From Escherichia phage Ec_Makalu_002: a stretch of 64,000 bases of DNA. The notes beneath the pieces were generated by a model. It did not search any database. It worked only from the letters and a program-made list of their open reading frames with translations, and was not told the origin of the DNA. Position 1 is the first letter of the stretch, and each line of letters starts with the position of its first letter. The DNA lies in the sequence record MN709127.1; one strand, 5' to 3'. Both the position numbers and the translations under genes were made by a program. This document shows positions 1,812 to 35,369 of the stretch, piece by piece.

Positions 1812-3611
1812 ATGCTAATGTTTAATAACTCCGTTAAATGGTTTACCGGAATTGTGGAAAATAGGGAAGACCCGTTAATGTTAGGCCGAGTTCAGGTCAG
1901 GATTCATGGTATACATCCTTCGCTATCCGCACACGGTGACATTCAAGGTCTTCCAACCGAAGATCTATTATGGATTACGCCAGTGCAGGATATTACTAGC
2001 GCGGCGATATCAGGTATCGGACAAAGCCCTACTGGTATTGTTGAAGGTTCAATGGTATTTGGTTTGGCCTTAGATGAACGTTATTTAAACTGCGTTATTC
2101 TGGGTACTATTGCCGGACAATATACAGAGAAACCACTCACTACAGAAGGTTTTTGCGACCCTTCTGGTGCATACCCGCGCTATATTGGTAATGATGTTAA
2201 TATTCTTGCCCGTGGCGGCATTAACCCAGAAACCGGACAAACAACAAAACCTGATAGTGTCTATATTCGAGATGAAAACACTGGAGTTGCAGTAAATCCA
2301 GACGACGAGCCATTAGATCAAATTCCGGTTGATGATAATCCTGATTTTACAATAGAAAAAATGCTGCGGGGCGATGAGGGATATCGCGAGAAATGGTATC
2401 TTGATTCAGAAGGATATCCGACAATAGGCATCGGGCATTTGATCATTTATAAGAAAACCAGTGATCTGGGTATTATCAATAATGAACTTTCTAAGCTGGT
2501 AGGGCGTGAAGTTACAAACGGAAGACTTACCGCCGAAGAAGTTAGCAAAGTATTTGCTGACGATATAGAAAAAACTCGTCGTGATATGCGCAAACATCCA
2601 CGAATTGCACCTGTCTATAATAAATGTAATGCTTCTCGTCGTATGGCATTAGAAAATATGGCGTTTCAAATGGGTGTTGGTGGATTGGGTAAATTTAAGA
2701 ATAGTCTTGCTGCAATGCTGGCGGAAGAATGGAAACAAGCCTATGATGGATTACGTCAATCAGTATGGGCTAATCAAACTCCGGGACGCTCCAGCCGTGT
2801 TTCTAAAATTATTCTTACTGGCAACTTAGAATCCTATGGCGTAATTGCTCCTAAGAAAGAGGAATCTGTTTCCGATGATCCGCGAGCACGTTTGAGAAAT
2901 GCCCGTATTGCTGCCTATAAGACGCAGAGAGCAGAAGAAGACCCAGAAGCACCGTTTACCCCACAAGACACACGAATCATGTTTAAAGAGCCTAAGAGTT
3001 CGTATTCTGCAAGATATCCATATAACCACGTATACGAATCAGAGAGCGGTCATATTATCGAGATTGATGATACTCCTTCTCATGAGCGGTATCATCGTAA
3101 ACATCCTTCTGGTACATTTGAAGAAACCAGACCGGACGGAACGAGGGTAGAAAAGATTGAAGGTGATGATTATTTGATCGTTAAGCAAGGCCGCAAAGTC
3201 AACGTTAAAGGCAATCTGCAAGTTGTTGTTGAAGGTGACGCGCAAGTTTATTATATGGGTAATGTGATGCAAACCGTTGATGGTAACGTCACTGAATTTA
3301 TTCGTGGTAATGTTAATCAGACAGTTGAAGGTACAGCTAATATGCATGTTGTCGGTGATGTTACCGCGCAACTTGACGCTAATTTGACGGCTAACGTCAA
3401 GGGCAATGCTGAATTAATGATCGAGGGTAACACTACCGAGACAATTAAAGGTAACTATGATTTAACCGTTGAAGGTAATTTTAATATGACCGTCAATGGT
3501 ACTAAATCAGATCAGGTTAATGGTGACTGGTCCCGTAATTGTGGTGCAAGCGTTAAAGATATTGCATCCGGTACAGTTAAAATTGATGGTAGCCGTATTG
3601 ATCTTGGGTGA
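1812..3611 (+). CDS. 5: Baseplate hub and tail lysozyme gp5
   Basis: 599 aa; lysozyme-like segment (YLDSEGYPTIGIGHL) and C-terminal beta-helix repeats (VEGN/VKGN/VNGT). Confidence 0.9.
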   Translation: MLMFNNSVKWFTGIVENREDPLMLGRVQVRIHGIHPSLSAHGDIQGLPTEDLLWITPVQDITSAAISGIGQSPTGIVEGSMVFGLALDERYLNCVILGTIAGQYTEKPLTTEGFCDPSGAYPRYIGNDVNILARGGINPETGQTTKPDSVYIRDENTGVAVNPDDEPLDQIPVDDNPDFTIEKMLRGDEGYREKWYLDSEGYPTIGIGHLIIYKKTSDLGIINNELSKLVGREVTNGRLTAEEVSKVFADDIEKTRRDMRKHPRIAPVYNKCNASRRMALENMAFQMGVGGLGKFKNSLAAMLAEEWKQAYDGLRQSVWANQTPGRSSRVSKIILTGNLESYGVIAPKKEESVSDDPRARLRNARIAAYKTQRAEEDPEAPFTPQDTRIMFKEPKSSYSARYPYNHVYESESGHIIEIDDTPSHERYHRKHPSGTFEETRPDGTRVEKIEGDDYLIVKQGRKVNVKGNLQVVVEGDAQVYYMGNVMQTVDGNVTEFIRGNVNQTVEGTANMHVVGDVTAQLDANLTANVKGNAELMIEGNTTETIKGNYDLTVEGNFNMTVNGTKSDQVNGDWSRNCGASVKDIASGTVKIDGSRIDLG

Positions 3612-4479: not shown

Positions 4480-6380
4480 CAAAGCAAAAGATTACACAAA
4501 TTCCTGATATTTTTAATGCTGCTACATTCGATGAAATTAAAAGCGCATTAACCGACTGGATGAGAAACCAGGAAGAATTTAAAGATTTTGATTTTAATGG
4601 TGCTGGTATTAACGTATTGATGGACTTGCTCGCATATAACACTCTGTATATTCAGCAATTCGCCAACGCCGCGCTATATGAATCTTTTATCAGAACGGCA
4701 ATTAAGCGTAGTTCAGTTGTTCAAGCCGCGCAAGATTTAGGATATTTGCCAGCGAGTAAAACTAGTGCATCGACTACAATTATGTTGCATGTTTCCCATC
4801 CACGAAATCCGGCAAGTATTCGAATCCCACGAGGGACTAAATTTATTGCAAGTGTGGATCGCCAGACTTCTTACCCATTTGTTACTACAGAAGACGTTGT
4901 GAGCGTTTTAGGTTCAAATGGTTTATATACGCCTATGCTTAAAGTCGCACAAGGTCGTATTGTTCGTACAGAAATGTTATTTGATCCGAAGAAACAAATT
5001 CTGATCCGTGACCCTGATATTGACCGCGCTCAGGTTAAATTGTGGGTGGACGGTGCTGAATGGAAAGACTGGACACGAGAAAGTATTGTTAATGCAACTG
5101 GCGCAAGCAATATTTTCTATATGCGTGAAACCGTAGACGGACATACAGAAATTTTCTTTGGTGAAGGTGAATCAACCTTATCTGCGGCTGGCGGGGCGCT
5201 GGAAGCAAATTATATTGGTGGACTTAAGCCGTCAACTGGCGCTAATATTGTTATCGAATATATCAGCACTAAGGGCGCGGAAGCAAACGGTTCAGTTAAT
5301 TTCACATACGCGGATACCCTTGCATCTATCTCTATTGTTAAAATTATTGAGAATCCGACAAATGATCGTGATTATGTCGGTGCAGATGGTGGTGGTGATC
5401 CTGAATCAATCGAACGTATCCGTGAACTTGCTCCGGTAATGCGTGAATCTCAGCGTCGTTGTGTAACTGCTTCCGACTACGAGGCTTTTGTTTCTAGCCG
5501 TTTTGGTAGTATTGTTCAGGCTGTACAATGTTTCACCGACCGAGAAAAACCGGGTTATGCTTTTGTTGCTGTTAAGCCTAAATCTGGCTTGCGTTTGACA
5601 ACTGTTCAAAAAGAAGATATGCGGGATTATCTGGCAAAATATAACCTTGCCCCTATCACACCGAGCATCATTGACCCTAACTATCTGTATATTAAACAGA
5701 ATATTAAAGTTTCCTATTCAATCAATGACTTGTCAGAATCAGAGCAGTGGTTGCGCGGTGCGGTTATTGATCAGATTGATGCATATTATACCGACGAAGT
5801 GGAAATTTTTAACCAGACCTTTAGTAAGTCTAAAATGCTTGCGCGTATTGACAAAGCTGATGTATCTGTGATAGGTTCTAGTGCAGAAATCGAGATGGTG
5901 CGAGAGATCGACAACTTCTATAAAGCACCGATGGCTGGAATCAAGTTTTTAAACCAGTATAAGAGCGGAATCAAGTCTAGTTCATTCAACTTCGAAAAGG
6001 ACGACAAGCAATATCCGATCCATTATGTAAGTACAGAAATGAACAAAGAATCCGGTTTAGCTAAATTGCTGGTTGGACCTTTCCCTGTTGGTTCTGCAAT
6101 CGCTTTACCGCACTATTCCGGCACTGATTTTGATAAAGAGGTTATCGACGGTGCGGACCTATACTTTGAGGTTGGAGAGGTTCAGCATTATGACGACCTT
6201 ATTTCATGGGATCTGGGTAAACTGAATATCAATAGCGATCGCTTTACTGGTTCATATATTGAGTTGACAGCTAAACCGATTGCTGATAACATCTTTACTA
6301 AAGACGGTTCTTTGATCGTGTTTGAAAACGATCTCCGTCCTCAGTACACAACTATTAGTCTGGAGGCAATTGCTCAATGA
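4476..6380 (+). CDS. 6: Baseplate wedge protein gp6
   Basis: 634 aa; synteny and size (T4 gp6 ~660 aa). Confidence 0.8.
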
Positions 6381-9300
6381 TTAAAGCGCCTAGTGTAACT
6401 AGCTTGACAATAGAAAAATTGTCTGCTAATCAGGCGTATATCACATGGGATGACGTAGGCGAAAACTTCTTTTATTTTGTGGAGTTAGCCGAAACCAGAA
6501 CACGAGACGGGGAGATCATCCCCGTCGATGAGTTAAGCTGGGTAAACCTGGGATATACTGCCGAACAAAACTGGTTTGAGGATAAAAGCCTTTTTCCAGA
6601 ATATTATTACAAGTTTCGTGTAGCAGTAGCCGCAGAAGGATTTGAACAAAGTAAATGGGTTGAGACAGAAGAGTTTCAGACATTTAAAACAAACGCATAT
6701 AATTTTTCTATGATGCGAGAGTTCAACCTTGCAAACGAGTTTATAAAGGAAAAATTTACATACGATAATAGAGAGTATGTCAAGTTTAATACTGACCTGA
6801 TTCAAGCATCATTGATGAAGGAAGATTTTGTCTTTAGTCCTGAATATGCAAACATGACAAATATCTCAAACTACATTGTAGTTGATGAGAACTTTCATGA
6901 AATACAGGATCACATAGAAAAAGTTTGTATTGATATAAACCGCACTATGTTAGCGGAAATGAACGGTGTTTTGTACCTTTTCGAACGGTTCCAGCCGATC
7001 GTGAAAGTGTCAAATGATAAAGGTCAATCATGGAAAGCATACAAGGCTTTTAATGACCGTGTAGGCAATCCGGTTTCCCGTACATGCGTTTATCAGTCTA
7101 AAACCACTACTTACGTTTTAGGATATGATCGAATCTTTTACGGACGACAAGCGAGCGATACTCGATGGAGCGCGGACGATGTTCGATTTAGTGATGACAC
7201 GATCACTTTTGCAAAGGTTGGTGACGAGAACGATTTAGGCTTTGACGTTGAGGTCTTTGGTGTATTTTCCAGATTAACAGGGGACACCACAAAATACGCC
7301 GAAGCTATGGCGTGCAGTGATGACTATTTGTGGGTTGGTGCTAAAGATGTTATTCGCCGGATTCGTCTTAAGAATACTCCAGTTGATACCGTACAGGGTT
7401 CGCCTACGTTTGGCGAAAAAATATTCGATCCTGATGTTATCCGAGTAACAGGAAATGATAAAGCTGTCATTCAGAAAATGGATGTGATCGACGGTAAATT
7501 GCTTGTATTTGTTACTGGTGAAGTTAAACAGCGTTATCAAGATCCAACTAAACCAGAAAACGTTGTTCCGTCAGATGATGCGGGTGTATACTTAATAGGG
7601 AGTGATGGTCTGTCTTTTCAGAGAGTATTTGGCAACACTCCGCAGGAAAGGGAATATATTCAGCACGGGTTCAGTAATATGTCAACCAATGGTGATGAGG
7701 TGTTCATAAGCCATTATAATCATCACTTCGAAAGCATTTTACCTGATCCAGAAACTGCCGCAAAATATGAATTAGGCGAAGCTGTGAAATATTCTCAGGA
7801 GCCAACTTATCTAACTGATAAGAAAATACATCAAACTACTTTCAGAGCAAGTTATGATGATTTGCGTATTTGGGAGTTAGGACCGCAAGCGTATTATAAT
7901 GAGGCTGATTATACATGGATGCGTCGAAACGGTGTCCGTGTGTGGATCACAAATGATAATCGCCCGTTGGTTGTTTATCCAGAGGTTATCTATACTCAAG
8001 AAGTTGATACATCTGGCATTCTTGACCAAAACAGGGTTAACCGAGAGGTTTATGATAAGGGGACAGTGACCTGTTATCTTAACAATGTTAAATTTGAAGG
8101 GTTCAAACAATATGCATCCGGTGTAATGTTCCATAAAAACACGGGAGAGATCATTGGATTCTATCAATTTAATTATCGTGTTCGTGACCAAGTTGGTGTA
8201 TATTGGAAACCTACAAATGTAGCATTTGTTGCTGAATTACAAAATCAGGTTCGAGAGGTTCCCTGGGTTCCTGTTCATTATGACAGAGAGCAAGACCCAG
8301 ATTTACGGCCTTTACTGAATAAGATGACCCCGGATAGCTTTTTGCTTGAGAACGAAAATTTCAGAAAATTCTCTGAATATTATCTGCAATTCTTAAGTGA
8401 TGGTTCAGGAACATATTATAATAAACTAAAAAATCTGATTAAAAACAAATACCCACGCGAGCAAGATGCATATGAGTATCTTTGGCCAGAGATGAACAAA
8501 CGAAACATCTATGCAGATAAAAACAAGCGAGATGCGGTAGTAAGATTCTTCGAATCCCGCAAATCAGATTTTTATTCCACTAAGGGCGTGGAGGCTTCTT
8601 ATAAGTTCTTGTTTAAGTTACTTTATAATGAAGATGTGGAAATTGAGGTTGAATCGCAAGCCGGACTAGAGTATGATATTGTTGTTAGTTCAACGAACAT
8701 TGACGAGGATATCGTAGGTCGCACGATCTATACTCCAACCGGACGGGCTAACGTGACGTATCTTGAAAGGGAATATGAAGGTGGTCGCCTACGCTGGCGA
8801 GTAACCATTCATAACCTGATCGGGCGGTTCGAAGAAGGTCAAGTGATCAAATCAGAGAAAACAGCGTTTGAAGGGATGATCCTTGTTGGTGTACGTGGTA
8901 AAGAGTTGTTGAGTAGTTCAATCGACTATATCAACCGCTCACGAAGCCAATACACCATGAAGATTAAAAGTGCATTACCAGTTTCGCGCTATGCAAATGA
9001 TGTAATGCGATTCGTTCATCCTGTCGGCTTTGGGTTTATCGGTGTTACCCTGCTTACGATGTTCATTAACAGCGGGTTGAGCATGAAGCACACCGAGACT
9101 ATAATTCAATCTCTGAAAAATTATAAGTTTGACAGCGGATTGCCTAGCGTGTATCCTGATCGGGTGGCAGACCTTGACGTTGACGGAAACATTAAGAAAG
9201 ACCCGCTTACCGGAAAAGCATTATATTTGACTTCACCTTTAATCGGTGAAGAATTTCCGGTTCCTCCTGAATATGATCAGGAGAACAGCGAATTGTTCCA

Positions 9301-31818: not shown

Positions 31819-33405
31819 ATGAAAACTACCAAAGAACTGATGGAAAAATGGTCCCCGCTGCTGGAGAACGAAAAACTGCCGGAAATCGCAACTGCGTCTA
31901 AGCAGAAACTGGTTGCTAAAATTCTGGAATCTCAGGAAGCGGATTTTGCTGTAGACCCGATCTATAAGGATGAAAAAGTTGTTGAAGCATTCGGTGGCTT
32001 TATCGCAGAAGCCGAAGTTGCTGGCGACCACGGTTATGACGCATCTCAGATCGCGGCTGGTCAGACTACTGGTGCAATCACTAACGTAGGTCCGGCTGTT
32101 ATCGGTATGGTTCGCCGTGCTATTCCTAACCTGATCGCATTTGATATTTGTGGCGTTCAGCCGATGAGCACCCCGACTAGCCAGATCTTTGCAATCCGTT
32201 CTGTATACGGTCCTAACCCGCTGGCGGCTCAGGCTAAAGAAGCATTCCATCCGATGTATGCGCCTGATGCGTTCCATAGCTCTCTTGCTGCTAAAGGTGC
32301 AATTGTCGGTTCTCCGACCGGGACTCCGTTTGCTAAACTGGCAATCGGTACTCAGATTGAAGCAGGTGATATTGTACACCACACCTTCGCAGAAACTGGC
32401 ATTGCATATCTGCAAAACGTTACCGCAGAACAAGTAACCCCGACCAAAGCTGGCAGCGAGTCCGAAGATGAAGTTGTCATGAAGCTGATGGAAGAAGGTA
32501 AACTGGCTGAAATCGCTTTCGGTATGGCGACTTCCATTGCCGAAATTCAGGAAGGCTTTAACGGTTCCAGCAATAACCCGTGGGCTGAAATGTCAATGCG
32601 TATTGACAAACAGGTTGTTGAAGCGAAATCTCGCCAACTGAAAGCCCGTTACTCTATCGAAGTTGCGCAGGATCTGCGTGCTGTACACGGTATGGATGCT
32701 GACGCTGAACTGAATGCTATCCTGGCTAACGAAGTTCTGCTGGAAATCAACCGTGAAATCGTTGACGTCATCAACTTTACCGCTCAGGTTGGTAAGACTG
32801 GTATGACTCAGACCGTTGGTTCTAAAGCTGGTGTATTTGACCTGCAAGACCCGATCGATACTCGCGGTGCTCGTTGGGCTGGTGAATCCTTCAAATCTCT
32901 GATCTACCAGATCGACAAAGAAGCTGCTGAAATCGCTCGTCAGACTGGTCGCGGTGCGGGTAACTTTGTTATCGCTTCCCGTAACGTTGTAAACATTCTG
33001 GCTTCTGCTGATCAGGGTATCAGTCTTGCTATGCAGGGTGCTGCAAAAGGTCTGAATACCGACACCACTAAAGCTGTTTTCGCTGGTGTTCTGGCTGGTA
33101 AGTACAAAGTGTTCATCGACCAGTATGCTCGTCAAGACTACTTCACCGTAGGTTACAAAGGCGACAACGAAATGGATGCTGGTATCTACTATGCTCCGTA
33201 TGTTGCTCTGACTCCGCTGCGTGCAACTGACCCGCAGTCTTTCCACCCGGTTCTGGGCTTCAAGACTCGCTATGGCATCGGTATTAACCCGTTTGCAGAC
33301 AGCAAATCCCAGGCACCGTCCGCTCGCATCACCTCCGGTATGTTGAGCAAAGACAGCGTAGGTAAAAACGCATACTTCCGCCGTGTATGGGTTAAAGGTT
33401 GCTAA
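31819..33405 (+). CDS. 23: Major capsid protein gp23
   Basis: 528 aa; long identical stretches to T4 gp23 as recalled (GDHGY, MVRRAIPNLIAFDICGVQPM, SRQLKA.YSIE.AQDLRAVHGMDADAEL, YFRRV.VKG). Confidence 0.95.
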   Translation: MKTTKELMEKWSPLLENEKLPEIATASKQKLVAKILESQEADFAVDPIYKDEKVVEAFGGFIAEAEVAGDHGYDASQIAAGQTTGAITNVGPAVIGMVRRAIPNLIAFDICGVQPMSTPTSQIFAIRSVYGPNPLAAQAKEAFHPMYAPDAFHSSLAAKGAIVGSPTGTPFAKLAIGTQIEAGDIVHHTFAETGIAYLQNVTAEQVTPTKAGSESEDEVVMKLMEEGKLAEIAFGMATSIAEIQEGFNGSSNNPWAEMSMRIDKQVVEAKSRQLKARYSIEVAQDLRAVHGMDADAELNAILANEVLLEINREIVDVINFTAQVGKTGMTQTVGSKAGVFDLQDPIDTRGARWAGESFKSLIYQIDKEAAEIARQTGRGAGNFVIASRNVVNILASADQGISLAMQGAAKGLNTDTTKAVFAGVLAGKYKVFIDQYARQDYFTVGYKGDNEMDAGIYYAPYVALTPLRATDPQSFHPVLGFKTRYGIGINPFADSKSQAPSARITSGMLSKDSVGKNAYFRRVWVKGC

Positions 33406-33487
33406 TATAAGCCATTCCTGAAAAACTCCGGTCGGGTGCAATACCCGACTTATCATAAACCTTATGACAGTGTAAAGTGTTAATTCC

Positions 33488-33519
33488 AAAGGGAAGACTC
33501 GAAAGGGTCTTCCCTTTTT
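33488..33519 (+). terminator. Strong rho-independent terminator after gene 23
   Basis: 11-bp stem AAAGGGAAGAC/GTCTTCCCTTT followed by TTTTT. Confidence 0.7.
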
Positions 33520-33535
33520 GCGTATTATATCCCAT

Positions 33536-33543
33536 TATAAATA
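33536..33543 (+). promoter_or_regulatory. T4-type late promoter TATAAATA in the 23-24 intergenic region
   Basis: Exact TATAAATA; downstream target unclear. Confidence 0.5.
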
Positions 33544-33891
33544 AGGTTGCAAGCCTATATTCTATTTGGAGCGAAAATAGATACACACAACAAAGACAGG
33601 AAGATGCAGAACATCGGCGGGTTGCGATCCTAAATCCGGTGGCTATGATATGTGATTTCTTTTGATGCTGGATTTATTAAATTCCACCAATTTTCGTAGT
33701 AACTGCATGGCAAAGGGACCAATGAATGAAATGAGCGTTCATGTTGATATTGTGTTGGATAGATTTGGTAGATATACAGTTCTGGTGTATGCCGACCTTG
33801 TTATGACATTCCAGCGTGACGCTAGCGGTAATTTTTGGTTTTGGTACGCTGTTCCCTGAATTAACCCAAAATTCTCCATAAGGAGGAATGC

Positions 33892-34044
33892 ATGAGTAAG
33901 AAAGAAAACAGCTATGTTATGACTCGTAAGGAATACAACGAATTGATGTTAGCATTAGCTTATGCAATTATTCGTTCTGATCATGCAATTAATCTGGTAA
34001 ACAAAGTTAACCGTAGCGTTGATAATGTTTCTAGGAAGAAGTAA
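33892..34044 (+). CDS. Small hypothetical protein (50 aa)
   Basis: ATG preceded by AGGAGG at optimal spacing; followed by terminator hairpin; below ORF-track size cut-off. Confidence 0.4.
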   Translation: MSKKENSYVMTRKEYNELMLALAYAIIRSDHAINLVNKVNRSVDNVSRKK

Positions 34045-34053
34045 GTTTATTTT

Positions 34054-34078
34054 GGAATCCTTCGGATTCCTTTTTCTT
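34054..34078 (+). terminator. Rho-independent terminator
   Basis: GGAATCC-TTC-GGATTCC followed by TTTTT. Confidence 0.55.
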
Positions 34079-34082
34079 TTTG

Positions 34083-34090
34083 TATAAATA
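34083..34090 (+). promoter_or_regulatory. T4-type late promoter TATAAATA upstream of gene 24
   Basis: Exact TATAAATA about 38 nt upstream of ATG 34128. Confidence 0.6.
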
Positions 34091-34127
34091 TGATATATCC
34101 ATTAAGGCAAATACAGGATTCATAAAC

Positions 34128-35369
34128 ATGACTCATATTTTTACTGAACTGTTGCGGGAATCTACTTCCTCAGTAGCTAACCAGACAGCGCGACCGCAAC
34201 TATTATCATTAACTCGCGCGGTAAACAACCTGATTTTCTCTGATCTGGTAGCAATCCAGCCAACGGATCAACCAGTATCTGCATTGTACGGCCTACGTTA
34301 TCTTAATCGTGATGGTCAGATGACTTTCCGAACTGCTGCAACCTACGGTGGTGCGGTTGGTGATCGCACAGAGATTGAAGAGTTTTCAAAAGAAAAATCT
34401 TATGACGAAGGCGCACTATTCAAATCAGGCGATGTTGTATACGAAGTTGTGACCGCTGGTACAGTCGGTGAAGATGCCGCAACTCCAGAAGCTGCGATCT
34501 TTAAAGGCGTAATGACAAACAAAATTCGTTTCTATAGCGATTGTGCATCGGTAGAATACTTTGAAGATAAAAACACCGAAATTGCGTCTACCTCTATGCA
34601 GTTTGACAAGTGGCAAGTTAATGTAGGTTCTCGTAAACTGAAAACCTCGTTCACCACTGAATTAATGCAGGATCTTGAGGCAAGCCAAATCAACTCTGAA
34701 AACTCTGTAATTGATCTTCTGGCTACTGTTGCTTCCGAAGAGATCAACAAAGATATTATTCAGAAGTTGATCACTGTATCATCTCGCTATAAAATTAAAG
34801 GGATCACCCCTGATGGCGTACTTTCTCTCGTTAGCGTTCAGGATGCACCAACACAAGCGCGTGAACTTTACCGCTATGCTTGCGAGATGAGCAATCAAAT
34901 GTTGCGGACTTCCTCCTTTGCTGGTACATACGTTTTGGCGTCTTCTCGCGTGGTTGGCCTCCTGCAATCTTCCGGTTGGATGGAAGAAACCGACAATGCT
35001 CTAAGCGAAGGTCGTCTACGTTGCGGTCTGGAAGTTTACGCAGACACGACAACACCTTTCGATTATATGCTCGTTGGTTGCAAGCACATGATCGGTGATA
35101 TGGAGAGTGTCGGTTCTCTGTTCTACTCCCCATATACAGAAGCTGACGGCGCTGGCGCGTATAAGAGCGTAATTGACCCTAATAGCTTCCAGCATCATGT
35201 AGCTATTATGAATCGTTATTCACTCTCTGTCAACCCATACACATCAAAAGTTGATCAGGAAGAACACCAGGTCATCAAGGGTGACGATTGGGGTAAAATG
35301 GCTGGACGTTCAGAAATGTCCTACATTTTAGGAATCGAACTGCCACCACTTGAGATTGACAACGCTTAA
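34128..35369 (+). CDS. 24: Capsid vertex protein gp24
   Basis: ORF track starts at TTG 34080 (overlapping the late promoter); ATG 34128 gives MTHIFTELLRES..., aligning with T4 gp24 N-terminus as recalled. Confidence 0.85.
   Translation: MTHIFTELLRESTSSVANQTARPQLLSLTRAVNNLIFSDLVAIQPTDQPVSALYGLRYLNRDGQMTFRTAATYGGAVGDRTEIEEFSKEKSYDEGALFKSGDVVYEVVTAGTVGEDAATPEAAIFKGVMTNKIRFYSDCASVEYFEDKNTEIASTSMQFDKWQVNVGSRKLKTSFTTELMQDLEASQINSENSVIDLLATVASEEINKDIIQKLITVSSRYKIKGITPDGVLSLVSVQDAPTQARELYRYACEMSNQMLRTSSFAGTYVLASSRVVGLLQSSGWMEETDNALSEGRLRCGLEVYADTTTPFDYMLVGCKHMIGDMESVGSLFYSPYTEADGAGAYKSVIDPNSFQHHVAIMNRYSLSVNPYTSKVDQEEHQVIKGDDWGKMAGRSEMSYILGIELPPLEIDNA

What the first reader, a model, noticed from the sequence alone, without database searches (positions are those of the whole stretch)
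33406..34127. Gene 23 to gene 24 interval carries its own late promoter, a 50-aa ORF and two terminators
After the strong gene 23 terminator (33488-33519) comes a TATAAATA promoter (33536-33543), about 350 bp with only weak ORFs (33662-33859 in the ORF track has no ribosome site), then a 50-aa ORF with a near-perfect AGGAGG site (33892-34044), a second terminator and the gene 24 late promoter. The region also holds a perfect hairpin GTCGGGT-GCAAT-ACCCGAC (33429-33447). I cannot tell from sequence whether this is a small late protein, a leader or small RNA, or a decayed insertion.
Basis: seen in the sequence. Interest (0 to 1): 0.4.

Follow-up and report, generated by a model that had tools for sequence, protein, structure and literature searches.

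The report
Gene-loss scar and small late gene
The gap between the two capsid genes of this RB49-like phage holds the decayed leftovers of a three-gene, fibre-like late operon that some relatives still carry whole, followed by that operon's last gene, a 50-residue helical protein that selection still preserves. This is ordinary gene loss, but it explains the odd anatomy.

Summary

The window is a Krischvirus (RB49 group). Six isolate genomes and more than 15 metagenomic contigs carry a roughly 3.4-kb late operon between gene 23 and gene 24. Its order is P-late, then genes of 102, about 570 and about 309 aa, then a 50-aa gene and a terminator.

The window and 52 of 58 database relatives retain only these parts:
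- the promoter, 5'UTR and first three codons of the 102-aa gene, with the start codon changed from ATG to ATA;
- a frameshifted 130-nt piece of the 570-aa gene;
- the last 50 or so codons of the 309-aa gene.

So the "350 bp with weak ORFs" is a two-deletion scar. Among relatives it is full of indels whose lengths are not multiples of three.

The 50-aa ORF is a genuine gene. It is intact in all 58 genomes. Its dN/dS is 0.14, the same as gp23. It has no indels, where about 6 would be expected at the remnants' rate. It is predicted to be a single heptad-repeat helix. The family is confined to this phage group, and its function is unknown.

Nothing supports a small RNA. The finding is ordinary and of low to moderate interest.

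The parts
31819..33405 (+). Gene 23 (major capsid protein, 528 aa); left border of the interval
   Evidence: ORF list. Annotated as major capsid protein in relatives. Pfam Gp23 in homologous loci.
33431..33449 (+). Conserved stem-loop (7-9 bp, loop GCAAU) between the gene 23 stop codon and its terminator; role unknown, possibly a 3'-end stabiliser for gene 23 mRNA
   Evidence: Energy -13.1 kcal/mol, z -3.9. The loop is invariant, and two base pairs changed on both sides in the metagenomic lineage (C-G to T-A, T-A to C-G). It is absent in L035-L037. The T run on the minus strand is not conserved.
33488..33522 (+). Intrinsic terminator of gene 23 (13-bp stem plus U run)
   Evidence: Energy -20.9 kcal/mol, z -5.2. 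The stem is kept with compensatory changes in JK32, L014, L020 and L035. A terminator after gene 23 is predicted in all six T4-like genomes compared in PMC1524935.
33536..33543 (+). T4-type late promoter box TATAAATA of the ancestral 4-gene operon; inferred transcription start near 33549
   Evidence: Exact motif. Invariant in 9 divergent lineages, together with the following AAGGTTGCAAGCCTATATTCTA. It lies 45 nt before the former start codon, the same geometry as the other 9 copies in the window. The start-site position is inferred from the -13 to -6 rule for T4 (PMC1524935).
33544..33589 (+). Relict 5'UTR, Shine-Dalgarno site (GGAG, 33568-33571) and first three codons of the lost 102-aa gene; its start codon is now ATA (33581-33583). 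Deletion junction 1 lies at about 33589/33590
   Evidence: Aligns with Brandy L009 3223-3293, where ATG CAC ACA begins the 102-aa ORF. ATA is shared by all 15 short forms examined.
33590..33720 (+). Remnant A: frameshifted internal fragment (about codons 400-440) of the lost ~570-aa fibre-like gene
   Evidence: 79-81% identical to Brandy L009 4778-4938. blastx matches to residues 405-412, 416-425 and 427-438 fall in three different frames. Nucleotide diversity 0.050 and six indel events (1, 1, 2, 13, 22, 1 nt) among 15 short forms.
33721..33739 (+). Deletion junction 2: a 19-nt imperfect repeat (AATGA..AAAT.AGCGTT) found in both the 570-aa gene and the 309-aa gene of long forms
   Evidence: This stretch aligns with both L009 4920-4938 and L009 6118-6136. 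The crossover lies at the shared AGCGTT.
33740..33879 (+). Remnant B: the last 50 or so codons of the lost ~309-aa coiled-coil/beta-sandwich gene. The '65-aa weak ORF' at 33662-33859 runs through remnants A and B
   Evidence: 54% identical to residues 260-309 of the G2248 protein and 90-93% nucleotide identity to Brandy and L013. A +1 T shifts the frame before the native stop. The open frame measures 35-65 aa, with three different C-termini, in 15 relatives. Five indel events of 12, 4, 11, 1 and 1 nt.
33880..33886 (+). Shine-Dalgarno site AAGGAGG of the 50-aa gene. In long forms it overlaps the stop codon of the 309-aa gene
   Evidence: A Shine-Dalgarno-like element is present in all lineages. 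It can pair with UUCUCC immediately upstream.
33892..34044 (+). 50-aa protein gene (RB49p162 / PHROG 16600 family): last cistron of the ancestral late operon. Predicted to be a single basic heptad-repeat alpha-helix
   Evidence: Intact in all 58 Krischvirus records. dN/dS 0.14. 12 synonymous against 11 nonsynonymous variable states, P = 4e-4 against neutrality. No indels and 3 of 150 sites segregating, against 41 of 309 in the remnants. AlphaFold2 helix 12-49, pLDDT 86.6. Heptad a/d positions hydrophobic in 9 of 10 cases; no transmembrane segment.
34054..34079 (+). Intrinsic terminator of the operon (7-bp stem, loop UUC, U run)
   Evidence: -9.2 kcal/mol, z -3.95. The stem is kept with compensatory changes in JK32, L035 and L034. 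Annotated as a terminator in Makalu_001, GEC-3S and G2248.
34083..34090 (+). Late promoter box TATAAATA of gene 24
   Evidence: Conserved in all lineages aligned.
34128..35369 (+). Gene 24 (capsid vertex protein, 413 aa); right border of the interval
   Evidence: Start ATG at 34128 checked. Annotated as the vertex protein in relatives.

Best explanation
The interval is the shrunken remains of a late operon.

Ancestral state. This state still exists in phages G2248, Brandy, UPWr_E1, SSG23, SFHK24 and JK32, and in gut-metagenome lineages. Gene 23 and its terminator were followed by a gp55-type late promoter that drove four genes: 102 aa, about 570 aa, about 309 aa and 50 aa. A terminator closed the operon, and gene 24 followed with its own late promoter. 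The 570-aa protein has a collagen-like stretch. The 309-aa protein is a coiled-coil stalk with a beta-sandwich head.

Gene loss. In the lineage of RB49, GEC-3S, Phi1, JSE and this window, two deletions at short repeats removed about 2.7 kb. They left the promoter, the 5'UTR, three codons of gene 1, a scrap of gene 2 and the tail of gene 3. These scraps have since decayed freely.

What survives. The fourth gene is still kept by purifying selection. It encodes a small basic helix with a continuous heptad repeat, so it probably forms an oligomeric coiled coil.

Inferred, not shown. Late in infection the relict promoter starts an RNA of about 530 nt near 33549. Its first 343 nt are a functionless pseudogene leader. 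Ribosomes load at AAGGAGG and make the 50-aa protein, and the RNA ends at the 34054 terminator.

The role of the protein is not known. Because it outlived the three fibre-like genes, it most likely acts in virion morphogenesis, or as a minor virion component, independently of them.
For: Identity of the phage: 57 Krischvirus records match at 90-99%.

The long form exists and is intact.
- Annotations of Brandy, G2248 and JK32.
- 12 of 12 metagenomic loci found with two variants of the 50-aa protein.
- One IMG/VR contig.
- The most divergent homologues, at 47-57% identity, show the same gene order.

The window is a mosaic of pieces of the long form.
- 33300-33589 matches L009 3018-3293.
- 33590-33739 matches L009 4778-4938.
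- 33721-34250 matches L009 6118-6649.
- The start codon ATG is ATA in the window.
- The fragments match the intact proteins in shifted frames.
- Both junctions lie at short repeats.
- All 15 short forms share both junctions.

The cassette has not moved elsewhere. Full-length 309-aa and 570-aa homologues occur in only 6 of 50,697 phage records. 48 short forms hold only the C-terminal fragment, each at a single place.

The scraps are decaying.
- Nucleotide diversity is 0.023-0.050.
- There are 11 indel events, and the remnant ORF varies from 35 to 65 aa with three different ends.

The 50-aa gene is under selection.
- dN/dS is 0.14 at dS 0.24-0.36, against 0.13-0.27 for gp23 in the same genome pairs.
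- Compared with JK32, synonymous sites are saturated while dN is 0.285.
- Variable states split 12 synonymous to 11 nonsynonymous, P = 4e-4.
- It has no indels, where 5.8 are expected at the remnants' rate (P = 0.003). Segregating sites are 3 of 150 against 41 of 309 (P = 3e-5).

Regulatory elements are conserved, with compensatory changes in the stems. The promoter geometry matches the other late promoters in the window.

Protein shape.
Against: - No expression data exist for this locus in any Krischvirus that I could find. Promoter use, read-through of the gene 23 terminator and translation are therefore all inferred.
- Within the short forms the promoter box is no better conserved than the neighbouring neutral DNA. 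JSE and phiS carry CATAAATA, so the relict promoter may not be essential.
- Within the short forms the only three changes in the 50-aa ORF are nonsynonymous, with none at third codon positions. This does not look like classic purifying selection, although the numbers are tiny.
- Remnant A is only 79-81% identical to the closest long form, while the flanks are 91-98% identical. The true parental allele is therefore not in hand.
- The Shine-Dalgarno site can pair with UUCUCC upstream. Without an upstream translating ribosome, this pairing might lower translation.
Confidence: 0.85

Rival explanations
1. The 50-aa protein is a dedicated assembly chaperone or partner of the lost fibre-like proteins, in the manner of the small genes that follow fibre genes in T4, lambda or Mu. 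In this phage it would be a functionless relic that has simply not yet decayed.
For: It is always the cistron immediately after the 309-aa (or, in JK32, the 614-aa) coiled-coil gene. Its Shine-Dalgarno site overlaps that gene's stop codon. It is a coiled-coil-type helix. Within the short forms its only changes are nonsynonymous: E14K, E17K and L35M.
Against: In the same 15 genomes the adjacent remnants collected 11 indels and 41 segregating sites. The ORF has no indels and 3 segregating sites (P = 0.003 and 3e-5). It is intact and full-length in all 52 short-form records. No Pfam, NCBIfam or PHROG chaperone family matches it.
Confidence: 0.1
2. The short form is ancestral. The long form arose by insertion of a mobile cassette, and the window's weak-ORF stretch is a decayed copy of such an insertion. 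This would parallel the homing-endonuclease gene segD that sits between genes 23 and 24 in T4.
For: The gene 23-gene 24 gap is a known site of optional DNA in T4. This point (segD) rests on my own knowledge and was not tested here. Gene content at this locus differs between close relatives.
Against: - Long forms occupy every deep branch: JK32, L035-L038, L034, L014-L025 and G2248. Short forms make up one tight cluster that shares both junctions.
- The short form keeps the cassette's own promoter, 5'UTR, Shine-Dalgarno site and first three codons, plus an internal scrap and the 3' end. Only deletions can produce this pattern.
- The cassette proteins have no endonuclease, transposase or integrase domain.
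- The cassette evolves under the same late promoter and terminator frame in all lineages.
Confidence: 0.04
3. The interval encodes a small regulatory RNA or a structured leader that controls the 50-aa gene or gene 24.
For: A 343-nt untranslated leader lies between a late promoter and the ORF. There is a local hairpin that includes the Shine-Dalgarno site.
Against: - No Rfam family matches at E <= 1.
- The predicted 532-nt transcript folds no better than shuffled sequence (z = +0.57; 68 of 100 shuffles fold as well).
- The leader carries deletions of 13, 22 and 85-99 nt and many small indels among close relatives.
- Gene 24 has its own conserved promoter behind a conserved terminator.
Confidence: 0.03
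4. The 65-aa ORF (33662-33859), or the other small ORFs that some annotators call here (33477-33665 and the 42-62-aa 'hypothetical proteins' of relatives), are real genes.
For: They are annotated in many GenBank records. One of them even has its own PHROG, 20809.
Against: - There is no ribosome-binding site.
- The frame, start and stop differ from phage to phage: 35-65 aa, three different C-termini, and indels of 1, 4, 11 and 12 nt.
- The conserved part is simply the C-terminus of the intact 309-aa protein.
- ORF 33477-33665 runs across the gene 23 terminator and the promoter.
Confidence: 0.03

Closest known systems
RB49p162 / phi1 ORF162 / JSE EpJSE_00167 hypothetical proteins (PHROG 16600, unknown function)
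   Same: The same gene. It is 98-100% identical, at the same place between gene 23 and gene 24. The PHROG match has E = 1.5e-38 over the full length.
   Different: Nothing differs in sequence. What is added here is evidence that it is selected, that it is the last cistron of a larger operon, and a predicted shape. No paper in the library mentions these locus tags.
T4-type late transcription unit (gp55/gp33/gp45-dependent TATAAATA promoter, intrinsic terminator)
   Same: TATAAATA box, with Shine-Dalgarno site and start codon 30-47 nt downstream and a hairpin plus U run at the end. The consensus and its -13 to -6 position come from PMC1524935 and PMC2988020.
   Different: The first cistron served by this promoter is dead. 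The RNA therefore begins with a 343-nt pseudogene leader, which is unusually long for a T4-type late mRNA.
Optional DNA between genes 23 and 24 in T4 (segD homing-endonuclease gene); from my own knowledge, not tested here
   Same: The same intergenic position holds non-core, variable gene content.
   Different: The Krischvirus cassette has no endonuclease domain. It is late-transcribed, it looks structural, and it appears to be ancestral rather than invasive.
Indel-driven plasticity of RB49/phi1 genomes (PeSL cassettes, Arbiol et al. 2010, PMC2839356)
   Same: Close relatives differ by the presence or absence of whole genes of unknown function.
   Different: That mechanism involves repeated early-promoter stem-loops in early regions. 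This locus is in a late region. The junctions show only a CACA microhomology and a 19-nt imperfect repeat. The paper does not mention the locus. I did not search the junctions for PeSL repeats specifically.
Small genes downstream of phage fibre genes that act as fibre assembly factors (T4 gp57A and gp38, lambda/Mu/P2 Tfa); a resemblance recalled from knowledge
   Same: A small late gene placed directly after a coiled-coil/beta-sandwich fibre-like gene, with an all-helical prediction.
   Different: There is no sequence-family match. It is kept after the fibre-like genes were lost, which a dedicated chaperone would not be.

Membership tests
T4-type late promoter | Exact or near-exact TATAAATA box | tested here: met
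   Present at 33536-33543 and 34083-34090. Consensus as given in PMC1524935.
T4-type late promoter | Placed a few tens of nt upstream of a late gene's Shine-Dalgarno site and start codon | tested here: met
   It lies 45 nt before the former start codon of the 102-aa gene, with GGAG at 33568-33571. The other nine copies lie 30-47 nt before a Shine-Dalgarno site plus ATG. The start codon itself is now ATA.
T4-type late promoter | Conserved in diverged relatives | tested here: met
   Invariant in 9 lineages whose flanks are 74-79% identical. Within the short forms its conservation cannot be told apart from neutral, and JSE and phiS carry CATAAATA.
T4-type late promoter | gp55-dependent initiation late in infection | not testable with these tools
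   No transcript data were found for any Krischvirus.
Intrinsic (rho-independent) terminator | G+C-rich stem-loop followed by a U run, more stable than chance | tested here: met
   33488-33522: -20.9 kcal/mol, z -5.2. 34054-34079: -9.2 kcal/mol, z -3.95.
Intrinsic (rho-independent) terminator | Stem maintained by compensatory change across relatives | tested here: met
   Both stems differ in sequence but still pair in JK32, L014, L020, L034 and L035. This was judged by eye from the alignment; no formal covariation statistic was run.
Protein-coding gene (the 50-aa ORF) | Open frame, start codon and Shine-Dalgarno site kept in all relatives | tested here: met
   58 of 58 phage records plus all metagenomic loci encode 49-50 aa, and a Shine-Dalgarno-like site is present in all.
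Protein-coding gene (the 50-aa ORF) | Excess of synonymous over nonsynonymous change | tested here: met
   dN/dS 0.14. 12 synonymous against 11 nonsynonymous variable states, where 19% synonymous is expected under neutrality (P = 4e-4).
Protein-coding gene (the 50-aa ORF) | Detected peptide or ribosome footprints | not testable with these tools
   No proteomic or ribosome-profiling data were found.
Pseudogene remnant / deletion scar | Sequence homology to intact genes at the same locus in relatives | tested here: met
Pseudogene remnant / deletion scar | Loss of start codon, frameshifts and truncation | tested here: met
   ATG changed to ATA. Remnant A matches the intact protein in three frames. 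Remnant B has a +1 T before the native stop.
Pseudogene remnant / deletion scar | Neutral-like accumulation of substitutions and out-of-frame indels among relatives | tested here: met
   Nucleotide diversity is 0.023-0.050, against 0.0037 in the neighbouring ORF. There are 11 indel events, most with lengths not a multiple of 3.
Known RNA family (Rfam 15) | Covariance-model match | tested here: not met
   No match at E <= 1 in 33000-34600 on either strand.
Phage fibre assembly chaperones (gp57A, gp38/Tfa type) | Sequence-family match | tested here: not met
   No Pfam, NCBIfam or functional PHROG match for the 50-aa protein.
Phage fibre assembly chaperones (gp57A, gp38/Tfa type) | Co-occurrence with, and dependence on, its fibre gene | tested here: not met
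   It is adjacent to the fibre-like gene in long forms, but it is retained under constraint in 52 genomes that lack that gene.
Homing endonuclease or other mobile element (segD-like occupant of the gene 23-24 gap) | Endonuclease, transposase or integrase domain in the cassette | tested here: not met
   Pfam finds only coiled-coil-type matches and weak noise. NCBIfam finds none.
Anti-phage defence or counter-defence cassette | Match to PADLOC models beyond low-complexity or coiled-coil similarity | tested here: not met
   Only weak coiled-coil hits (JetC or LmuB arms) for the JK32 614-aa protein, and one 14-bit Cas6 chance hit.
Phage fibre / receptor-binding protein (the lost 309-aa and 570-aa genes) | Fibre-like architecture and similarity to known fibres | tested here: inconclusive
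   - 309-aa model: helix 27-117 plus a beta-sandwich at 136-290, pLDDT 74.
- PDB search: no hit at E <= 0.001. The weak hits include the adenovirus fibre knob.
- BFVD search: an Edwardsiella phage protein at E = 4e-6, plus weak receptor-binding, tail-fibre and coiled-coil-fibre hits.
- 570-aa protein: a Gly-X-Y run, weak tail-fibre PHROG matches and a faint XkdV_N match.

The most novel reading that the evidence does not exclude
The intact four-gene cassette (102, 570, 309 and 50 aa) between genes 23 and 24 is an undescribed accessory fibre or decoration module of Krischvirus virions that affects host range. For example, it might underlie the unexplained ability of Brandy49 to infect O-antigen-producing strains without binding O antigen (PMC9569957).

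Under this reading the 50-aa coiled-coil protein is a general virion adaptor or assembly factor. It might act at the gp24 vertex, whose gene it always precedes. That role would explain why it alone survives in RB49-type phages propagated on rough laboratory strains.
Probability: 0.15. Interest if true: 0.55.

Novelty: new member of a known kind. Interest (0 to 1): 0.3.

Why it matters
- **Annotation.** The finding cleans up the annotation of more than 50 Krischvirus genomes. The 42-62-aa 'hypothetical proteins' called upstream of the 50-aa gene, and PHROG 20809, which is built from them, are pseudogene fragments. The 50-aa gene is real.
- **Promoter prediction.** A perfect late promoter can be a relic whose first cistron is dead. 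This is worth keeping in mind when promoters are predicted from motifs.
- **A lead for phage-therapy work.** A conserved, late-transcribed, fibre-like operon is present in a minority of RB49-like phages and in abundant gut-metagenome lineages, and it has no described function. RB49-like phages are used therapeutically, and host range differs between carriers and non-carriers of the operon. That correlation is anecdotal.

Tried and rejected
- **Rfam scan** of the interval at E <= 1: nothing.
- **Fold of the predicted 532-nt transcript:** not more stable than shuffles.
- **IMG/VR scan with the 50-aa protein:** only 2 loci.
- **Word-indexed protein search:** only relatives at 88% identity or more. 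The exhaustive HMMER search of 1.84 billion representatives found just 4 clusters, so the family is confined to this phage group and no functional homologue exists.
- **PDB sequence searches** for the three cassette proteins: nothing.
- **Pfam, NCBIfam and PADLOC:** only coiled-coil noise.
- **Foldseek on the 309-aa model:** no convincing PDB match.
- **Fold search of the 50-aa model:** not run, because a single helix gives meaningless matches.
- **Literature:** no paper mentions the locus tags. I found no Krischvirus transcriptome or virion proteome. The RB49/phi1 comparison paper does not cover this locus. The SSG23 and Brandy49 papers do not discuss the cassette.
- **Sigma-70 promoter scan:** 5 sites against 3.8 expected, so not informative.
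- **Minus-strand terminator reading of the 33431 hairpin:** rejected, because its T run is not conserved.
- **Two errors of my own, both corrected:**
  - In one search I placed the gene 24 start at 34129 instead of 34128. This produced a false signal of excess nonsynonymous variation in gp24, corrected.
  - The gp24 dN/dS failed for the same reason and is not used.
Full report
**1. What the window is**

The region matches 57 Krischvirus (RB49-like, T4-type) phage genomes at 90-99% identity and is identical to none of them. Gene 23 (major capsid protein) is 31819-33405. Gene 24 (vertex protein) is 34128-35369. The finding therefore covers the complete gene 23-gene 24 intergenic interval.

**2. 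Checking the observation**

Every element is present.

- **Hairpin.** GTCGGGT-GCAAT-ACCCGAC lies at 33431-33449, 2 nt to the right of the coordinates given. Its energy is -13.1 kcal/mol, z = -3.9.
- **Gene 23 terminator.** A 13-bp stem at 33488-33517 followed by a T run: -20.9 kcal/mol, z = -5.2.
- **Second terminator.** 34054-34070 followed by a T run: -9.2 kcal/mol, z = -3.95.
- **TATAAATA boxes.** They sit at 33536 and 34083. The window has 10 copies, against 5.8 +/- 2.6 in shuffles, so the count alone is not significant. All ten, however, lie 30-47 nt upstream of a Shine-Dalgarno site and a start codon. The one exception is 33536, where the codon in that position is ATA.
- **The 50-aa ORF.** It runs 33892-34044 and has AAGGAGG 5 nt upstream.
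- **The weak ORF.** 33662-33859 starts with TTG and has no ribosome-binding site.

**3. The key result: the interval is a deletion scar**

Relatives fall into two forms.

- **Short form.** 52 of 58 database records have an interval of 627-741 nt, like the window.
- **Long form.** Six records (G2248, Brandy, UPWr_E1, SSG23, SFHK24, JK32) have about 3.4 kb or more.

The long form reads as follows:

- gene 23 and its terminator;
- TATAAATA;
- a 102-aa gene;
- a gene of about 570 aa;
- a gene of about 309 aa;
- in JK32 only, an extra 614-aa coiled-coil gene;
- the 50-aa gene and its terminator;
- TATAAATA and gene 24.

All 12 metagenomic contigs retrieved through two variants of the 50-aa protein carry the intact long form. 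So do one IMG/VR contig and the contigs of the most divergent homologues known.

The window aligns with Brandy in three collinear pieces:

| Window | Brandy (L009) | Content |
|---|---|---|
| 33300-33589 | 3018-3293 | End of gene 23, terminator, promoter, 5'UTR, Shine-Dalgarno site, first three codons of the 102-aa gene |
| 33590-33739 | 4778-4938 | Interior of the 570-aa gene; 81% identity |
| 33721-34250 | 6118-6649 | Last ~160 nt of the 309-aa gene, the 50-aa gene, gene 24 |

Further details point to deletion followed by decay.

- The start codon of the 102-aa gene is ATG in all long forms and ATA in all short forms.
- Remnant A matches the 570-aa protein at residues 405-438 in three different reading frames.
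- Remnant B matches residues 260-309 of the 309-aa protein. A +1 T shifts its frame before the native stop.
- Junction 1 has a CACA microhomology. Junction 2 lies in a 19-nt imperfect repeat present in both parental genes.
- All 15 short forms examined share both junctions, so the loss happened once.
- The JSE group has lost a further 85-99 nt, the Phi1 group 22 nt, and the window itself 13 nt.
- Short-form genomes have no second copy of the cassette elsewhere.

**4. Decay against constraint**

Across 15 short-form genomes:

| Segment | Nucleotide diversity | Indel events | Segregating sites |
|---|---|---|---|
| Remnants A and B | 0.050 and 0.023 | 11 (1, 1, 2, 13, 22, 1, 12, 4, 11, 1, 1 nt) | 41 of 309 columns |
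| 50-aa ORF | 0.0037 | 0 in the coding sequence (5.8 expected at the remnants' rate, P = 0.003) | 3 of 150 (P = 3e-5) |

The remnant 'ORF' varies from 35 to 65 aa and has three different C-termini. This explains why annotators call it inconsistently. It also explains why PHROG 20809 matches only the C-terminus of the intact 309-aa protein.

Between the window and the long-form lineages, the 50-aa gene has dN/dS = 0.14 at dS 0.24-0.36. gp23 shows 0.13-0.27 in the same genome pairs. Compared with JK32, synonymous sites are saturated while dN is 0.285. Over 32 sequences there are 12 synonymous and 11 mostly conservative nonsynonymous variable states. Neutrality predicts 19% synonymous, giving P = 4e-4. 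The ORF is therefore a protein-coding gene under purifying selection, and it has remained constrained since the other three genes were lost.

**5. Regulatory elements**

In lineages whose intergenic DNA is only 74-79% identical to the window:

- both TATAAATA boxes are invariant;
- the 22 nt after the first box are nearly invariant;
- both terminators keep their stems through compensatory changes.

The 33431 hairpin keeps its GCAAU loop. It has two double-sided pair changes in the metagenomic lineage and is missing in one lineage.

By the T4 rule that the box occupies -13 to -6 (PMC1524935), transcription would start near 33549. The resulting RNA would be about 531 nt long, with a 343-nt leader. 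That leader shows no excess structure (z = +0.57), matches no Rfam family and is riddled with indels among relatives. It is a passive relic, not an RNA element.

**6. What the proteins look like**

*The 50-aa protein*
- AlphaFold2 predicts one helix at residues 12-49, pLDDT 86.6.
- A continuous heptad runs from Y15 to V46, with 9 of 10 a/d positions hydrophobic.
- It has no transmembrane segment and a net charge of +5.
- Invariant residues across all known homologues are Y8, T11, K13, Y15, L18, L20, A21, Y24, I26, S29, K38, S42 and N45.
- The family comprises only 4 clusters at 50% identity among 1.84 billion representatives. It has no Pfam or NCBIfam model and only an 'unknown function' PHROG.

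*The lost genes*
- The 309-aa protein is modelled as a 90-residue helix plus a beta-sandwich head, pLDDT 74. It has weak fold similarity to fibre knobs, receptor-binding proteins and coiled-coil fibres, and no convincing PDB match.
- The 570-aa protein has a Gly-X-Y run and weak tail-fibre matches.
- Both families are confined to this phage group.
- 'Fibre-like virion proteins' is therefore an inference, not a demonstration.

**7. Mechanism: shown and inferred**

*Shown*
- Homology of the scraps to intact genes.
- The deletion junctions.
- The dead start codon.
- Neutral decay of the scraps.
- Purifying selection on the 50-aa gene.
- Conservation of the promoters and terminators.

*Inferred*
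- Late transcription from 33536.
- Translation from AAGGAGG.
- Termination at 34054.
- The coiled-coil nature of the product.

*Unknown*
- The role of the product. Its survival after the loss of its three neighbours argues against a dedicated chaperone. I favour an independent role in morphogenesis or as a minor virion component, with low confidence.

**8. Comparison and novelty**

The ORF is already annotated as a hypothetical protein (RB49p162 and its orthologues). The terminator after gene 23 and the late promoters are standard T4-type features (PMC1524935, PMC2988020).

I found no description of the cassette or of the scar. This is a new instance of a familiar process, gene loss with pseudogene remnants, together with confirmation of a small orphan gene.

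Its interest is low to moderate. The one lead of wider interest is the undescribed fibre-like late operon in long-form Krischviruses and gut-metagenome lineages.

Noticed in passing
L010 3245-6380 (G2248); L009 3285-6442 (Brandy); L011 3898-8948 (JK32); L014-L025, L035-L038: A conserved late operon of 102-, ~570-, ~309- and 50-aa genes lies between genes 23 and 24. The proteins look fibre-like (Gly-X-Y run; coiled-coil stalk plus beta-sandwich head). All families are confined to Krischvirus-like phages and none has a described function. The operon is present in 6 of 58 isolates but in all metagenomic contigs retrieved.
   Followed up: partly
window 33740-33879 and the equivalent stretch in relatives: PHROG 20809 (a 45-aa profile, 'unknown function') matches residues 261-302 of the intact 309-aa protein at E = 2e-20. 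The PHROG appears to be built from pseudogene-fragment ORFs annotated in short-form genomes.
   Followed up: partly
L009 3601-5330 (Brandy): The ~570-aa gene is split into overlapping 250-aa and 327-aa ORFs in Brandy, and tblastn recovers it in two pieces. This is either a frameshift (the beginning of decay) or a sequencing error. Brandy49 is reported to have an unusually broad host range by an unexplained mechanism (PMC9569957).
   Followed up: no
L011 6922-8766 (JK32): JK32 has an extra 614-aa gene, almost entirely coiled coil and annotated as 'tropomyosin-like', inserted between the 309-aa gene and the 50-aa gene.
   Followed up: partly
window 33892-34041: Within 15 short-form genomes no third codon position of the 50-aa ORF varies (0 of 50), against 32 of 299 in the flanking gp23 and gp24 segments (P ~ 0.004). 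Yet there are three nonsynonymous changes (E14K, E17K, L35M). At greater divergence the ORF's dS is normal. This could be a local sweep, recombination or chance; it is unexplained.
   Followed up: partly
window 33431-33449: The stem-loop between the gene 23 stop codon and its terminator has an invariant GCAAU loop and two compensatory base-pair changes in a diverged lineage. It is absent in L035-L037. Its role is unknown. The minus-strand 'terminator' reading is not conserved.
   Followed up: partly
window 33873-33888; L009, L010, L035 equivalents: The Shine-Dalgarno site of the 50-aa gene (GGAGGA) can pair with UUCUCC just upstream, with the stop codon of the 309-aa gene in the loop. This suggests translational coupling in long forms and possibly reduced translation in short forms.
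   Followed up: no
L007 (JSE) and L029 (phiS), aligned to window 33536 and 33585-33679: JSE and phiS carry CATAAATA instead of TATAAATA at the relict promoter. The JSE group, which also includes 011D4 (box intact), has lost a further ~85-99 nt of remnant A. This hints that the relict promoter may be dispensable.
   Followed up: no
window 33590-33720: Remnant A is only 79-81% identical to the closest long form (Brandy), while the flanking segments are 91-98% identical. Either it decays faster, or the short form descends from a different cassette allele that has not been sampled.
   Followed up: no
window 34128-34577: Among short forms the first 150 codons of gp24 vary almost as much at first and second codon positions (11 of 300 sites, nucleotide diversity 0.012) as at third positions (11 of 150 sites, 0.019). 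gp23 is far more constrained (3 of 298 against 21 of 149). The N-terminal part of gp24 appears to be weakly constrained.
   Followed up: no
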